DNA of 64,000 nucleotides from Candidatus Helarchaeota archaeon (GTDB lineage Archaea > Asgardarchaeota > Lokiarchaeia > Helarchaeales > RDOG01). Numbering within the stretch: position 1 is the first letter of the stretch; the number at the start of each line of letters is the position of its first letter. A model generated the notes under the pieces. It made no database searches, had not been told where the DNA came from, and saw nothing but the letters and a program-made list of their open reading frames with translations. The stretch spans positions 32,001 to 96,000 of the forward strand of contig JAHPZH010000004.1 in NCBI GenBank assembly GCA_019058315.1, in the 5' to 3' direction. The translations under genes were made by a program, and so were the position numbers. Positions 47,704 to 51,953 of this stretch are shown piece by piece.

Positions 47704-48915
47704 GTGTCAGACCAAAAATTCTCTGATTGGGATTTTAAAGGAGTAGATACTAAATATTCTACCCACGGAATTCATTATTACCCAGCCAGGATGATCCCAC
47801 AAATAGCTAACCGTCTGATATGTAATTATTCAAAACCTTATGATTTAATCCTTGATCCATTTTGTGGATCAGGGACTGTATTATTAGAATGTAAATTATT
47901 AAATCGAAATTCAATTGGATTTGATATCAATCCACTTGCTTATTTGTTGTCCAGTGTCAAAATAACTCCTCTGACCAATTTTGATTCAAAATTTCCAGAA
48001 TCTATTTTTAAGAAATTAAAAATTAGAATCCCAGAGAGAGAAATGAATAAATTTTTACCTAAATTTAAAAATTTAAAGTACTGGTTCACCGAAAAATCAA
48101 TAAAAGCTCTGTTAATTATTAAATATTTCTTATTTACTGAAAGTTTACCAAGAAAAATTTTAAATTTTCTCAAAATATGTTTTTCCAAGACTGTCCAAGA
48201 GGTTTCTAAAGGTGTATTCGATGGGAGCTCTACTCATTTAAAGAAAAATTTACAGAATTTTTCTCCAAATGTATTTGAAGTTTTTAAGAAAAATATGATT
48301 GAAACGCTAGAAAAGATGAAAGAATTAAAGGAATTAAATAATTCATTGGAAACTTTAGCACTATCTTGTGATTCAAGGAATATTCCTTTAAAAGAAGATT
48401 CAACGGATTGCATAATTACTTCACCTCCTTATGGAGAAGAACAAAATACAATTGGTTATATGAGATGGACGAAATTTTCGTTATATTGGTTAGACTATAC
48501 TCCAGATGAATTACAAAAATTGAAAAAAAAGACGTTAGGATCAAGGAGCAATAATGAGATTTTAGTTAGATCTAAATACCTGCTTGATTATATTAACACT
48601 CTTAAAATATCCGAAAAAAGAATGGAATATGTTAAATCTTTTTTCTTTGATTATTTATTATGTCTAACGGAAATGTTTCGTACATTAAAACCTAATAAAT
48701 TTTGTTGCATTGTTATCGGGAACAGAACAATTGCTAAAAAACCATTATTTTTAGATAGAATAACCCTTGACTTGACTGCTAGTATCGGGTTTGAACATGT
48801 GAATACATATTTCAGACAAATTCCTACAAAAGCAATTCCTTGGAAAGGAATTTCTGGCAAAACAATTAAAAAAGAAAACATAATAATTCTAAAAAAACCA
48901 AAGAGAATCGATTAA
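47704..48915 (+). CDS. DNA methyltransferase (N4-C/N6-A type), apparently orphan
   Basis: THGIHYYPARMIPQI, DPFCGSGT (motif I), TSPPY (motif IV). Confidence 0.85.
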   Translation: MSDQKFSDWDFKGVDTKYSTHGIHYYPARMIPQIANRLICNYSKPYDLILDPFCGSGTVLLECKLLNRNSIGFDINPLAYLLSSVKITPLTNFDSKFPESIFKKLKIRIPEREMNKFLPKFKNLKYWFTEKSIKALLIIKYFLFTESLPRKILNFLKICFSKTVQEVSKGVFDGSSTHLKKNLQNFSPNVFEVFKKNMIETLEKMKELKELNNSLETLALSCDSRNIPLKEDSTDCIITSPPYGEEQNTIGYMRWTKFSLYWLDYTPDELQKLKKKTLGSRSNNEILVRSKYLLDYINTLKISEKRMEYVKSFFFDYLLCLTEMFRTLKPNKFCCIVIGNRTIAKKPLFLDRITLDLTASIGFEHVNTYFRQIPTKAIPWKGISGKTIKKENIIILKKPKRID

Positions 48916-48927
48916 AATTATAAATTA

Positions 48928-49548
48928 TTAAAGAGCTTTTTTTAATTTAATATACCCTTGTTTTTGATATTGGCGAATAATTTGATTTACATACAATCGA
49001 GTCTTGTTACTCTCTTTCATTATATATTCAACATCATTTTCCCCATTACATAAATTCAAAACAGTGGCATGTTCAATTGGGATTTTTATTTCACCTAAAT
49101 CTTTTACTAATAAGGGCACAAATTTACTTTTTTTCTTTTTAACTTCCACTTGTTCTTTTACTGGAGCTTTTTCAATTTCCTCTTCAATAGGCTTTTTAAT
49201 ATCGCCAATACTTGAATCAATTTTGGGGATATACTTATGCATAATAGGTTTAAATGCTAGAAGTTGTCCTAATGCTCCTTTTTTGGTATGTAGAATAACC
49301 ATCGCCTTTTCACTGATTTTAAAAAAAATCATATTTATTCCACTTAGTGGGACTGAATGATCCCCTACTTTGAGCATTGGATAAGTCGTAGCCAAAAAAT
49401 CTTTAATTAAATCCGTATATTCCCCCAATTCAGAATCAATGTAACATATTTCTCCATTTGCATTCACGATAGCACAATATGGTCTTACAGTTAATAATGC
49501 ACCTAATTCTGAAGCAATTTCCCTTGAAATCTTGTAAAATTCTGACAT
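48928..49548 (-). CDS. Hypothetical protein with C-terminal winged-helix-like region
   Basis: 206 aa; VLNLCNG...VNQIIRQYQKQGYIKL. Confidence 0.65.
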   Translation of the reverse strand: MSEFYKISREIASELGALLTVRPYCAIVNANGEICYIDSELGEYTDLIKDFLATTYPMLKVGDHSVPLSGINMIFFKISEKAMVILHTKKGALGQLLAFKPIMHKYIPKIDSSIGDIKKPIEEEIEKAPVKEQVEVKKKKSKFVPLLVKDLGEIKIPIEHATVLNLCNGENDVEYIMKESNKTRLYVNQIIRQYQKQGYIKLKKAL

Positions 49549-49680
49549 TTACCAATCGTCAAATAAATGAGTTTAAATTTATTAAAATAATGAAAACTAA
49601 TTGATATATGAATTTTTATAATCTTAAATTAAAATTTCACTTTATTAATTTTGCAAGAATATTAGGTTTGGTTGGAAATA

Positions 49681-50426
49681 ATGAATGTAAAAATAATAAT
49701 GAAAGAAGAAATCCAGTTTAAAGATTGCATATTTATTACTGGTTTCTATGGCCTTGGCGCTACAGGATATAAATAGTTTTTCTGTTTACTTGAAATATCG
49801 CCATCCGTCATATGGTCGAAGCCTTAGATGTAAAAAGTATTGGGTATATGGAAACTGATCAGCTTCCAAGTTTCGTTAGCCTTGAAAATAATCGCCTCTC
49901 TTTGCCATTTGAATTTTTTAAATATGAAAATTTGGTGATTTTTCTTGCAAAGGTTCAACCTGCCCAATCGGAAATTAATGAAATAACCAAAACACTTGTC
50001 AATTGGGTTGTTACAAATAAATTTTCTGAAAGTATCTTAATTGGTGGTTTGGATTCTAAATTAAAAGAAGAGGATGATGAAACGCATAAAATTGTGCCTA
50101 CAAAAACATTCTCAAATCCCGAGAGGATAGGGTCTAACTTAGATAAAGGATTATTTGTAACTGGTCCACTAGCTCTTATGCTCATATATTTTGAAATGAT
50201 GAATTTTCCTGCATGTGCAATATTACCCTACTGTGAACGTGAACGGCCAGACCCTCGAGCAGCAGCAACCGCAATTCAAATATTAAACAAGCTATATCCA
50301 AAATTGAAAATCGATTTGGAAAAATTATATGGCGATGCTAAAAAGATTGAAGAAGAAATTGGATTAATACTTAAACAAGAGCGAGAAATGAGAGAACGTG
50401 AAGAACCTGGTGGGATGTACGTATAA
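49681..50426 (+). CDS. PAC2-family proteasome assembly chaperone/activator, join(49681..49768,49795..50426), 239 aa after splicing
   Basis: Joined N-terminus FITGFYGLGATGYIAIRHMVEAL fits the PAC2 GF.G.G..G.IA..H pattern; IGGL, PDPRAA; C-terminal MYV is an HbYX motif. Confidence 0.85.
49769..49794 (+). other. 26-nt bulge-helix-bulge (tRNA-type) intron in protein-coding gene
   Basis: Central helix CAGG/CUUG, 3-nt bulges AUA and AAA, inner stem UAAAUAG/CUGUUUA with U5 loop, exon-exon stems UA/UA, UGGCG/CGCCA and UAUGGC/GUCAUA; excision removes an in-frame TAG and the frameshift. Confidence 0.85.
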
Positions 50427-50492
50427 ACAAAAATTTTTTTAATTTGTAAATTATTAAGAAATAAGAAATGAAATTATTTAGGATATGATTTA

Positions 50493-51953
50493 ATGGAAGG
50501 AAAAAAAAAGCGGGTTACCAGATCTAAAATTGTGTGCACTATAGGACCCGCTAGTAATTCTGAACAGATGATTCGTGAATTAATTAACGCTGGCATGGAT
50601 GTAGCTAGATTAAATTTATCCCATGGAACACATGAAAGCCATACAGAAACTTTTAATAGAATTAGGAATGTATCAGAGAAAATTGCCATTTTATTTGATA
50701 TTCAAGGTCCTAAAATTCGTATTGGAGATATTAAGGACAAAAAAACCTACTTTTTAAAATTAGGTGACCAATTTACACTAACATCGAGAGATATTGAAGG
50801 GAATAACGAAATTGTTTCAGTAAGTTATAAGAAATTACCTGCAGAAGTTGACCCTGGAGATTTACTTTATATTAATGATGGGCTAGTTGGTCTTAAAGTT
50901 TTAGAAGTTACTAATGGAACTGATATTAAATGTGAAGTTATAACAGGTGGGGAGATATCAAGCCATAAAGGTATTAATGCTCCAAACGTTAAAATTACTG
51001 CAAAGGTTCCTACTGAAAAAGATATCGCAGATTTAAAATTAGCTGCTAGGTTAAAACCGGATTATATAGCTGCTTCCTTTGTTTCATCAGCAAATGATGT
51101 CGAAAATGTTAAAAAAGTGATACTTGAGGAAGGGATTAGTGTTCCTATAATAAGTAAAATTGAACGCCCTATTGCAGTAAAAGATTTTGATTCCATTTTA
51201 GAGGCTTCTGATGGAATTATGGTTGCTCGTGGCGATTTAGGAGTGGAGGTGCAAAGCGAAAATGTTCCTGGTCTCCAAAAAAATATGATAAGGAAATGTA
51301 ATCGAGTCGGAAAACCTGTAATATGCGCAACACAAATGTTGGACTCAATGCAATGGAACCCTATACCTACCCGGGCTGAAGCTAGTGATGTCTTCAACGC
51401 CATTTTCGATGGTGCAGACGCCGTTATGCTTTCTGGAGAAACAGCGGTCGGAGATTATCCTTTAGAATCAATTAAAATGATGGAAAAGATTATTATCAAT
51501 GCCGAAAATTCCATGCCTCCACTAGATTTATATCAATATGATTCTAAAAGCCCATCAAATTCTGAAATTCTTGCCCATGCAGGATTAGTAATATTAAGAC
51601 TAATTGAACATCATAGAAAATCAAAATTAGACGCCATAGTTGTCATAACTCGTTCGGGCCATACTGCAAAAATGATTTCGAAATTTAGACCTAATACTCC
51701 TATTTTCGCTGTAACATTTGATAAAGCAATTTACAGAAAATTATTTTTGCTGTGGGGTGTTGAGGCTTTCATTATCAAACAGTTATCGGATTTAGATTCC
51801 ATTAATAAATCTGCTGTCGAAACGGTATATAATCAAGGATATGTTTCAATGGACGATACTATATTAATTTCATCCGGATCAGACTTAGTTCCACATATGC
51901 AGACTACTTCTATTAGTCTATTTTCTGTAAAAGATATAATCTCTAAAGAATAA
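50493..51953 (+). CDS. pyk: Pyruvate kinase
   Basis: KIVCTIGPAS, ARLNLSHG, DIQGPKIR, SKIE, MVARGDLGVE, ATQMLDSM, PTRAE, VMLSGETA. Confidence 0.97.
   Translation: MEGKKKRVTRSKIVCTIGPASNSEQMIRELINAGMDVARLNLSHGTHESHTETFNRIRNVSEKIAILFDIQGPKIRIGDIKDKKTYFLKLGDQFTLTSRDIEGNNEIVSVSYKKLPAEVDPGDLLYINDGLVGLKVLEVTNGTDIKCEVITGGEISSHKGINAPNVKITAKVPTEKDIADLKLAARLKPDYIAASFVSSANDVENVKKVILEEGISVPIISKIERPIAVKDFDSILEASDGIMVARGDLGVEVQSENVPGLQKNMIRKCNRVGKPVICATQMLDSMQWNPIPTRAEASDVFNAIFDGADAVMLSGETAVGDYPLESIKMMEKIIINAENSMPPLDLYQYDSKSPSNSEILAHAGLVILRLIEHHRKSKLDAIVVITRSGHTAKMISKFRPNTPIFAVTFDKAIYRKLFLLWGVEAFIIKQLSDLDSINKSAVETVYNQGYVSMDDTILISSGSDLVPHMQTTSISLFSVKDIISKE

What the first reader, a model, noticed from the sequence alone, without database searches (positions are those of the whole stretch)
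49747..49812. Canonical bulge-helix-bulge intron inside a protein-coding gene (PAC2 proteasome chaperone) of an Asgard-like archaeon
Seen: the gene starts at ATG 49681 and reads ...GFYGLGATGY, then hits AAA TAG, while the conserved continuation IAIRHMVEAL resumes 26 nt later in another frame. The RNA folds as UAUGGC-CU-UGGCG-C-UA-[CAGG]-(AUA)-UAAAUAG-UUUUU-CUGUUUA-[CUUG]-(AAA)-UA-U-CGCCA-UCC-GUCAUA. That is a 4-bp helix flanked by two 3-nt bulges on opposite strands, closed by an intron hairpin and long exon-exon stems. Known: the archaeal splicing endonuclease EndA cuts after the second nucleotide of each bulge and RtcB ligates; the well-established archaeal mRNA intron of this type is in crenarchaeal cbf5. 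Applying that rule excises exactly 49769-49794 and yields ACA GGA UAU AUC GCC, a full 239-aa protein. A random indel is very unlikely to satisfy both the structure and the frame. Inference: mRNA splicing by the tRNA machinery in the lineage closest to eukaryotes. Gene callers would miss it and report a truncated ORF, so more such introns may be hidden genome-wide.
Basis: partly seen in the sequence, partly recalled or inferred. Interest (0 to 1): 0.95.

Follow-up and report, generated by a model that had tools for sequence, protein, structure and literature searches.

The report
tRNA-type intron inside PAC2 chaperone gene
A proteasome-assembly chaperone gene of an Asgard (Helarchaeota-like) archaeon is interrupted by a 26-base intron of the kind normally cut out of tRNAs, which matters because such introns in protein-coding genes were documented only for one crenarchaeal gene (cbf5); no RNA data exist yet to show the splicing.

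Summary
The PAC2 gene starts at ATG 49681 and hits TAG at 49774. It resumes in another frame at 49795. The RNA 49747-49812 folds by minimum free energy into exactly the strict bulge-helix-bulge motif described. Cutting after the second base of each bulge removes 49769-49794 and gives a 239-aa PAC2 protein. Its junction, GATGY|IAIRH, matches intron-less orthologues without any gap.

Seven further metagenomic relatives (71-88% protein identity) carry an intron at the same site. Their lengths are 26, 28 or 29 nt, and the same rule restores the frame in every one. Intron stems are 94% conserved, against 52% for the loop and 63% for exon third codon positions. One central-helix pair changes on both sides (A-U to U-A). 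A close relative (L117) lacks the intron, and its DNA reads exactly as the predicted junction.

Independent DNA assemblies contain the 26 nt. The genome encodes two splicing-endonuclease (EndA) subunits and the RNA ligase RtcB. The same rule re-finds introns in its EF-2, rrp41 and RNase Z genes. This scan had already reported the rrp41 intron on another piece of this genome.

Splicing itself is inferred, because no RNA run was available. I class it as a new member of a known kind (cbf5-type mRNA intron).

The parts
49681..49768 (+). Exon 1 of the PAC2 gene: ATG start, 29 codons plus the first base of the split Tyr codon (phase-1 intron).
   Evidence: The start aligns with ATG/TTG starts of the relatives. 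It is 69% identical to the N-terminus of intron-less P0009. Pairwise codon differences are 170 synonymous to 174 nonsynonymous in this frame, against 50:303 and 21:326 in the other two frames.
49769..49794 (+). 26-nt BHB intron. It runs from the third base of the 5' bulge to the second base of the 3' bulge and contains the in-frame TAG 49774-49776.
   Evidence: It is present in independent DNA contigs without indels. It is absent, at exactly these borders, from L117 and from more distant orthologues.
49795..50426 (+). Exon 2: the last two bases of the Tyr codon, 209 codons and the stop TAA 50424-50426.
   Evidence: Pfam PAC2 (PF09754), E = 2.4e-28. The match starts at the first exon-2 residue and at profile position 14. 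Intron-less P0009 and P0010 match from profile position 1.
49747..49812 (+). The whole folded element: exon-exon stems, the BHB core and the intron hairpin.
   Evidence: The MFE and centroid structures are identical to the proposed structure. The same core is kept when 121 nt are folded.
49763..49766 (+). 5' strand of the central 4-bp helix (CAGG, exon 1). It pairs with 49789-49792.
   Evidence: This helix is paired in 100% of cells across 8 loci, with one change on both sides (A-U to U-A in L007).
49789..49792 (+). 3' strand of the central 4-bp helix (CUUG, intron).
   Evidence: Pairwise identity is 93.8% although the strand is non-coding.
49767..49769 (+). 5' bulge (AUA). The predicted cut lies between 49768 and 49769.
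   Evidence: The cut rule, between the 2nd and 3rd bulge residues, is as stated in PMC2738675.
49793..49795 (+). 3' bulge (AAA). The predicted cut lies between 49794 and 49795.
49770..49788 (+). Intron hairpin (inner helix h'): 7-bp stem 49770-76 / 49782-88 and loop 49777-81.
   Evidence: The stem is 94% conserved and the loop 52% across the 8 loci. The strain variant 49784 G>A in run X3 turns the U.G pair into U-A.
49755..49762 (+). 5' strand of the outer helix h. Bases 49761-62 pair with 49796-97. After a C/U mismatch, 49755-59 pair with 49799-49803.
   Evidence: The 2-bp UA/UA step is invariant in 8 loci, and the 5-bp extension is paired in most.
49796..49803 (+). 3' strand of the outer helix h (exon 2).

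Best explanation
The 26 nt at 49769-49794 are a bulge-helix-bulge (BHB) intron in the pre-mRNA of a PAC2-family (PbaA/PbaB-type) proteasome assembly chaperone.

Proposed mechanism:
- The transcript folds so that exon 1 bases CAGG pair with intron bases CUUG. A 3-nt bulge lies on each strand, an intron hairpin on the inside and exon-exon pairing on the outside.
- The genome's heteromeric (alpha-beta)2 splicing endonuclease EndA cuts between the second and third base of each bulge.
- RtcB joins the exons and probably circularises the 26-mer.
- The joined mRNA reads ...ACA GGA U|AU AUC GCC... and is translated into the full 239-aa protein.
- Unspliced RNA can only give a 31-aa peptide, because it stops at TAG 49774.

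Shown here: the motif, the exact frame restoration, conservation of the motif across eight diverged genomes, selection on both exons and on the intron stems, a precise intron-less relative, and the presence of the enzymes. Inferred: cleavage and ligation in vivo.

The intron is confined to a genus-level clade. It is therefore a recent gain, or has been lost in places. It is probably a tolerated insertion rather than a part the protein needs.
For: 1. Structure. The MFE fold equals a strict hBHBh' motif, z = -3.17.
2. Product. Excision gives 239 aa. The junction GATGY|IAIRH aligns without a gap to intron-less orthologues, which read GAAGYIAIRH or GATGYITIRH. Exon 2 begins at Pfam PAC2 profile position 14, and intron-less relatives begin at position 1.
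3. Conservation. Eight distinct loci have an intron at the same site, of 26, 28 or 29 nt. All carry an in-frame TAG, and all are restored by the same cut rule. Because the lengths differ modulo 3, no single ribosomal frameshift can explain them.
4. Selection. Exon 1 shows 170 synonymous to 174 nonsynonymous differences in the claimed frame, against 50:303 and 21:326 in the other frames. Exon 2 behaves likewise. The stretch between the intron and the first Met is conserved as protein, but the Met or start position is not. Intron stems are 94% identical and the central-helix intron strand 93.8%, against 52% for the loop and 63% for exon third positions. The central helix is paired in 100% of cells, with one compensatory A-U to U-A change.
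5. Presence/absence. L117 (79% aa identity, inside the same clade at 100/99 support) lacks the intron. Its DNA reads ACAGGATATATTGCC, exactly the predicted junction.
6. Not an assembly artefact. Contigs of a second study contain the 26 nt without indels.
7. Machinery. There are two EndA-domain genes and one RtcB. One EndA gene has the catalytic His context and one lacks it, read by eye. Asgard archaea are reported to have (alpha-beta)2 EndA with the L1 loop (PMC5829648).
8. Same rule elsewhere in this genome. It restores DTPGH^VDL in EF-2, FDCGE^GTQ in RNase Z and the RNase PH domain of rrp41, where the Pfam halves are contiguous. It also restores canonical T-arms in three tRNA genes.
Against: - There is no RNA evidence of any kind, so cleavage and ligation are inferred.
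- Statistical covariation is weak because the eight sequences are close. There is one double change, and 116 of 500 shuffles reach that count.
- Part of the outer helix is coding sequence (GLGA / IAI), whose conservation may be due to the protein. It is broken in L008 and L010.
- MFE folding on its own draws the complete motif only for the window and L001. In five other loci it keeps the central helix, the 5' bulge and the hairpin but pairs the outer part differently. In L003 it does not recover the central helix, and L003 has an A/G mismatch in the hairpin.
Confidence: 0.88

Rival explanations
1. Translational recoding. The ribosome passes the 26 nt by programmed frameshifting or by hopping, as in phage T4 gene 60. 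The hairpin would then be a recoding signal rather than a splicing signal.
For: A stop codon lies directly after the take-off region (TAG 49774), followed by a stable hairpin. This superficially recalls the T4 gene 60 bypass. That comparison rests on my own knowledge, not on a tool.
Against: Intron lengths are 26, 28 and 29 nt. They equal 2, 1 and 2 modulo 3, so no single frameshift direction works. For hopping, the landing codon must match the take-off codon UAU. The landing triplet is AAU in the window, CAU in L007 and GAU in L008, and UAU only in L004 and L010. What is conserved is the exact BHB geometry, including the 3' bulge and the intron-exon 4-bp helix, which recoding does not need. 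The same geometry removes tRNA introns in this genome.
Confidence: 0.03
2. The gene is expressed in pieces. Only the downstream ORF is translated, from Met 49812 or a later start, giving a shortened PAC2. The BHB would be either an RNA cleavage site without ligation or of no consequence.
For: Gene callers find a 204-aa ORF with an ATG at 49812. BHB motifs are also used for cleavage and processing that is not intron removal, for example in rRNA precursors (abstracts).
Against: The start position is not conserved. The first Met is 12 codons further downstream in most relatives, and L007 has only a TTG there. Yet the residues between the intron and those starts are conserved as protein. Exon 1 is under frame-specific purifying selection. 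It encodes PAC2 profile positions 1-13, including the invariant TGFYGLGATGY. The intron-less relative L117 encodes both parts as one continuous ORF.
Confidence: 0.05
3. The gene is a pseudogene or carries an insertion scar: a 26-nt insertion or assembly error has inactivated it.
For: Short repeats flank the insert (GGATAT... / ...GAAATAT). The genome has a second, distant PAC2 paralogue at C3:480346-480948.
Against: The insert is kept at the same site in eight genomes that differ by up to 29% in protein sequence, while both exons stay under purifying selection. The intron stems are more conserved than synonymous sites. Independent assemblies agree. The second PAC2 copy is only 22% identical, and relatives carry it too, so it is a different paralogue and not a replacement.
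Confidence: 0.02

Closest known systems
cbf5 pre-mRNA intron of Crenarchaeota (Desulfurococcales and Sulfolobales; Watanabe 2002, Yoshinari 2006, Yokobori 2009 = PMC2738675)
   Same: A short intron inside a protein-coding sequence, defined by a BHB motif and cut between the 2nd and 3rd bulge residues. It occurs in organisms with a hetero-oligomeric (alpha-beta)2 EndA. It has a patchy presence/absence among close relatives, with gain and loss discussed.
   Different: The gene is different (a PAC2 proteasome chaperone, not a pseudouridine synthase) and so is the phylum (Asgard/Helarchaeota-like, not Crenarchaeota). The motif here is a strict canonical hBHBh', whereas cbf5 introns are often relaxed or unconventional. 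In this genome it is one of at least four interrupted protein genes. cbf5 splicing was shown by cDNA and in vitro cleavage. Here nothing has been shown at the RNA level.
Archaeal tRNA (and rRNA) BHB introns
   Same: The motif geometry and cut rule are identical. The same scan and rule restore canonical T-arms in three tRNA genes of this genome, with introns of 30-35 nt. The size class and the AT-rich inner hairpin are similar.
   Different: The host is an mRNA. The intron must therefore be removed in competition with, or before, translation, and its borders are constrained by a reading frame (phase 1 inside a Tyr codon).
Unconventional cytoplasmic mRNA splicing of HAC1/XBP1 (Ire1 endonuclease plus tRNA ligase/RtcB)
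   Same: A protein enzyme excises a short (26-nt in XBP1) intron from an mRNA at stem-loop-defined sites. A tRNA-type ligase then joins the exons, which changes the reading frame. This rests on my own knowledge; the XBP1-RtcB link is mentioned in the PMC8718801 abstract.
   Different: The endonuclease is different (Ire1, not EndA) and so is the RNA signal (two 7-nt loops, not a BHB). XBP1 splicing is a regulated stress switch. No regulation is shown here.

Membership tests
Archaeal BHB (EndA-dependent) intron | Central helix of exactly 4 bp | tested here: met
   49763-66 pairs with 49789-92 (C-G, A-U, G-U, G-C) in the MFE fold. It is paired in 100% of cells in 8 loci, with one compensatory change.
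Archaeal BHB (EndA-dependent) intron | Two 3-nt bulges on opposite strands, each lying 3' of its central-helix strand | tested here: met
   The bulges are 49767-69 and 49793-95. All 8 loci have the same lengths and positions.
Archaeal BHB (EndA-dependent) intron | Flanking helices h (exon-exon) and h' (intron) of at least 2 bp, as in the strict hBHBh' form | tested here: met
   The inner hairpin has 7-8 bp and is 96.8% paired. The outer helix has an invariant 2 bp plus a 5-bp extension and is 87.5% paired.
Archaeal BHB (EndA-dependent) intron | Cutting between the 2nd and 3rd bulge residues yields the functional mature sequence | tested here: met
   The product is a 239-aa PAC2 that aligns to orthologues without gaps. 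It is identical in register to the natural intron-less DNA of L117. The rule is as stated in PMC2738675.
Archaeal BHB (EndA-dependent) intron | The genome encodes the splicing endonuclease EndA and the RNA ligase RtcB | tested here: met
   PF01974 matches at C12:5422-5676 (103 bits) and C1:331438-331698 (78 bits). PF01139 matches at C5:272272-273576 (582 bits).
Archaeal BHB (EndA-dependent) intron | Spliced RNA and excised intron observed, or cleavage by EndA shown in vitro | not testable with these tools
   No RNA holder was listed for this stretch. This needs RT-PCR, a metatranscriptome or an enzyme assay.
Programmed translational bypass (T4 gene 60 type) | Matching take-off and landing codons | tested here: not met
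   The take-off codon is UAU. The landing triplet is AAU, CAU or GAU in 6 of 8 loci.
Programmed ribosomal frameshift | One conserved shift direction and size at a slippery site | tested here: not met
   The insert lengths of 26, 28 and 29 nt would need shifts of different sign or size. An in-frame TAG is present in every locus.
PAC2 family (PF09754) proteasome assembly chaperone | Full-length match to the Pfam profile above the gathering score | tested here: met
   Exon 2 alone scores 99.8 bits (cut-off 25.8) over profile positions 14-211. Exon 1 supplies the residues that occupy profile positions 1-13 in P0009. Chaperone activity itself was not tested.

The most novel reading that the evidence does not exclude
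This Helarchaeota-like genus carries a dynamic population of EndA/RtcB-dependent micro-introns (about 16-32 nt by the scan's notes; 26-32 nt in the four checked here) in the coding sequences of core genes. The four verified at sequence level here are PAC2, EF-2, the exosome subunit Rrp41 and RNase Z. These introns are gained and lost on a genus time-scale, as the precise intron-less PAC2 allele in L117 shows. Expression of essential proteins in an Asgard archaeon would then routinely depend on mRNA splicing by the tRNA machinery. Standard gene calling would systematically truncate these genes.
Probability: 0.6. Interest if true: 0.88.

Novelty: new member of a known kind. Interest (0 to 1): 0.78.

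Why it matters
In the literature I could search, cbf5 of Crenarchaeota is still the only cited case of a BHB intron inside an archaeal protein-coding sequence. It is cited alone as late as 2025, and no paper on Asgard mRNA introns was found.

A strict, conserved BHB intron in a proteasome-chaperone gene, together with others in EF-2, rrp41 and RNase Z of the same genome, would show that mRNA splicing by the tRNA machinery is not a crenarchaeal oddity. It would be a recurring feature in an Asgard lineage.

This makes several questions testable:
- how translation and splicing are ordered in a cell without a nucleus
- how such introns spread into coding DNA and are lost again
- how many Asgard proteins in databases are truncated by gene callers, given that all eight intron-bearing PAC2 entries are

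It does not bear directly on the origin of spliceosomal introns.

Tried and rejected
- RNA evidence. No RNA holder was listed for the stretch, so the junction could not be looked for. Only DNA contigs could be laid.
- More relatives. The metagenome-contig scan with the window's protein returned only distant relatives at 35-38% identity. The genome-contig scan returned nothing above 56%. In the GTDB order (7 genomes) only the window's own genome has the intron.
- Genome-wide ORF-merging statistic. With a loose BHB definition (9 required pairs, 324,436 hits), true cut sites were not clearly enriched over frame-shifted ones. For example, 74 loci passed against 70-79 in the strict-quality class, and 628 against 513-561 in the loose 25-35-nt class. 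Adjacent genes and gene ends dominate the background in this 31% GC genome. Only the MFE-verified subset separated: 4 loci against 0-1, or 2 against 0 at the stricter level.
- Covariation statistics were weak: one double change, and shuffles reach it 116 times in 500.
- Rfam: no family matches 49000-50600.
- Gain versus loss of the intron. The free DNA tree nests intron-less L117 among intron-bearing rows, but monophyly of the intron-bearing rows is not rejected (AU p = 0.3). This stays unresolved.
- ARAGORN finds only 27 tRNA genes in 5.8 Mb, so it was of little use as a catalogue of tRNA introns.
- The spliced protein could not be sent to the structure or representative-search tools, because it is not a letter-for-letter translation of the window.

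Full report
**1. The observation**

The window at 49600-50500 and its ORF list show three things:
- A frame opens at ATG 49681, reads MNVKIIMKEEIQFKDCIFITGFYGLGATGYK and stops at TAG 49774-76.
- A second frame is open from 49794 (after TGA 49791-93) and runs to TAA 50424-26. Gene callers would start it at ATG 49812, giving 204 aa.
- The two frames are offset so that removing 26 nt joins them.

The energy is -17.2 kcal/mol and the z-score is -3.17 against dinucleotide shuffles; 1 of 200 shuffles folds as well. The structure consists of:
- a 4-bp helix, 49763-66 with 49789-92
- two 3-nt bulges, 49767-69 and 49793-95, each 3' of its helix strand, which is the topology of tRNA BHB motifs
- a 7-bp intron hairpin
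- exon-exon stems of 2, 5 and 6 bp

The core survives when 121 nt are folded.

The cut rule, between the second and third bulge residues, is stated for cbf5 in PMC2738675. Applying it removes 49769-49794. The result is a 720-nt CDS of 239 aa.

**2. The product is the right protein**

Exon 2 alone matches Pfam PAC2 (PF09754) with E = 2.4e-28. The match begins at its very first residue and at profile position 14. Intron-less relatives P0009 and P0010 match from profile position 1. The 13 residues before position 14 in P0009 are FITGFYGLGVTGY, the counterpart of the end of exon 1.

In the alignment with 12 full-length orthologues, the junction ...GATGY|IAIRH... lines up without a gap with ...GAAGYIAIRH... 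and ...GATGYITIRH.... Their DNA is uninterrupted at that point, for example GGA TAT ATT GCA.

**3. Comparative evidence**

The eight closest database proteins (71-99% identity) are all called as truncated proteins of 192-204 aa. Everything below 60% identity is full length, at 237-263 aa.

I fetched the contigs that encode them. The neighbourhood is syntenic: a DNA methyltransferase gene, a hypothetical gene, PAC2, then pyruvate kinase. Seven further distinct loci (L001, L003, L004, L007, L008, L009, L010) have an insert at exactly the same site.

| Feature in the 8 intron-bearing loci | Result |
|---|---|
| Insert length | 26, 28 or 29 nt |
| In-frame stop | TAG in every one |
| Product after applying the cut rule | ...TGFYGLGATGY-IA(I/L)RH... 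|

Because the lengths differ modulo 3, a ribosomal frameshift cannot be the common explanation.

On the 8-sequence alignment, the given structure is paired in 92.9% of cells, against 32-53% when partners are slid. The central helix is paired in 100% of cells. One of its pairs changes on both sides: in L007 a synonymous ACA-to-ACU change in exon 1 is matched by CUUG-to-CUAG in the intron. Formal covariation is weak, because the sequences are close.

The pattern of conservation is informative:

| Region | Pairwise identity |
|---|---|
| Intron stem positions | 94% |
| Intron strand of the central helix | 93.8% |
| Hairpin loop (also varies in length) | 52% |
| Exon third codon positions | 63% |

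A non-coding stretch that is more conserved than synonymous sites, and only where it pairs, is under selection for its structure.

Both exons are under purifying selection in their own frames:

| Region | Claimed frame (syn:nonsyn) | Other two frames |
|---|---|---|
| Exon 1 (22 codons) | 170:174 | 50:303 and 21:326 |
| Exon 2 (first 30 codons) | 278:197 | 61:389 and 32:431 |

The stretch between the intron and the first downstream Met is conserved as protein, while the Met or start position itself is not. This argues against independent translation of the downstream ORF.

**4. A precise intron-less relative**

P0009 (L117) is 79% identical and lies inside the same 9-row clade (100/99 support). 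It is one continuous ORF. Its DNA reads GTT ACA GGA TAT ATT GCC ATA CGC. The window's predicted spliced sequence is GCT ACA GGA TAT ATC GCC ATC CGT. Nature therefore provides the intron-less form with exactly the borders predicted by the BHB rule.

Whether this reflects a gain after L117 branched off or a precise loss in L117 is unresolved. The free tree nests L117, but monophyly of the intron-bearing rows is not rejected (AU p = 0.3). The family-level relative G006 is the same sequence as Candidatus Helarchaeota archaeon Meg19_1012_Bin_504. G006 and all other members of the GTDB order lack the intron.

**5. Not an artefact**

Contigs from three runs of a different study cover 49600-49998 (the third from 49620) at 95-99% identity, with no indel and no joint. 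One of them carries 49784 G>A, which turns the single U.G pair of the intron hairpin into the U-A pair seen in all relatives.

**6. Machinery**

The genome is 5.79 Mb in 12 contigs. It has two EndA-domain genes:
- a 184-aa protein with the ...DHAPF... catalytic His context
- a 201-aa protein without that context, which I read by eye as a structural beta subunit

It also has one RtcB. This fits the report that Asgard archaea carry the (alpha-beta)2 EndA with the L1 loop that confers broad specificity (PMC5829648). It also fits the earlier link between archaeal pre-mRNA splicing and hetero-oligomeric EndA (Yoshinari 2006, cited).

**7. Genome-wide context**

I scanned both strands of the genome for BHB geometry: 4 central pairs, 2 outer pairs and 3 inner pairs, for introns of 14-117 nt. 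This gave 324,436 hits.

A simple test asked whether excision joins two open frames. It is swamped by adjacent genes and is not enriched over frame-shifted control cuts.

Requiring that RNAfold itself draws the motif leaves 17 of the 99,444 candidates of 45 nt or less. Combined with ORF restoration, 4 loci pass with true cuts and 0-1 with shifted cuts. At the stricter level the count is 2 against 0.

The two robust loci are this PAC2 intron and a 31-nt intron in EF-2 (C6:81229-81259) that restores the G-domain motif DTPGH^VDL. The quality-filtered list adds:
- rrp41: C10:138945-138976, 32 nt
- RNase Z: C6:64108-64136, 29 nt, restoring FDCGE^GTQ

Pfam confirms that the halves are contiguous parts of one domain. 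For EF-2 they cover GTP_EFTU positions 2-79 and 82-151. For rrp41 they cover RNase_PH positions 1-59 and 64-129.

The same rule also restores canonical GGTTCGAATCC-type T-arms in three tRNA genes, which serve as an internal positive control.

Earlier notes of this scan had flagged rrp41, EF-2 and rnz on other pieces of this genome. I re-found them independently.

**8. Comparison with what is known**

The closest known case is the cbf5 pre-mRNA intron of Desulfurococcales and Sulfolobales (PMC2738675). It shares the mechanism, the heteromeric EndA and a patchy distribution with gain and loss.

The present case differs in four ways:
- the gene is different
- the phylum is different (Asgard)
- the motif is strict rather than relaxed
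- at least three other protein genes of the same genome are also interrupted

Full-text searches found no report of BHB introns in Asgard protein-coding genes. A 2026 preprint on Asgard tRNA introns does not mention mRNAs. A 2025 paper on EndA structure still cites only the cbf5 papers for pre-mRNA splicing.

**9. Verdict**

The sequence-level case is about as strong as it can be without RNA data. The missing step is direct demonstration of the spliced mRNA. I put the probability that this is a genuine EndA/RtcB-spliced mRNA intron at 0.88.

It is a new member of a known kind. Its interest is raised because it lies in an Asgard lineage, is one of several in core genes, and shows a precise presence/absence polymorphism.

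Noticed in passing
G000 C6:81229-81259 (- strand; locus L114): A 31-nt strict BHB intron lies in the EF-2 gene. Excision restores the G-domain motif DTPGH^VDL. The Pfam GTP_EFTU match is split into positions 2-79 (exon 1) and 82-151 (exon 2).
   Followed up: partly
G000 C6:64108-64136 (+; L115) and C10:138945-138976 (-; L116): There is a 29-nt BHB intron in RNase Z, restoring FDCGE^GTQ, and a 32-nt BHB intron in rrp41, where RNase_PH profile positions 1-59 and 64-129 fall on the two sides.
   Followed up: partly
G000 C5:113962-113996 (+), C6:79243-79273 (-), C10:130026-130055 (-): BHB introns of 30-35 nt sit inside tRNA T-loops. Removal restores GGTTCGAATCC-type T-arms. ARAGORN finds only 27 tRNA genes in the whole 5.8-Mb genome, 12 of them with introns, so most tRNA genes are probably too interrupted to be detected.
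   Followed up: partly
window 49784: A strain variant G>A in one independent sediment run (X3) converts the only U.G pair of the intron hairpin into U-A, the state seen in all seven related loci.
   Followed up: yes
L117:690-720: The intron-less relative's contig departs from the PAC2 sequence right after ...RPDP (TGA TAG follows) near the contig end. The cause may be a chimeric contig end or a truncated gene. It does not affect the intron site.
   Followed up: no
G000 C3:480346-480948 (-; L109): A second, uninterrupted PAC2-family paralogue is present, 22% identical to the first. Relatives in the order also carry two paralogues, consistent with a PbaA/PbaB-like pair.
   Followed up: no
window 47704-48915 (+), 48928-49548 (-), 50493-51953 (+): The conserved neighbourhood of the PAC2 gene is an N6/N4 DNA methyltransferase gene, a 206-aa hypothetical protein on the opposite strand, and pyruvate kinase. 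The same order is seen in L003, L004 and L010.
   Followed up: no
window 51004-51032 (G000 C1:83004-83032): A BHB-like fold lies inside the intact pyruvate kinase ORF. RNAfold draws it with only one of three flank lengths. The ORF is uninterrupted, so I judged it a chance motif.
   Followed up: yes
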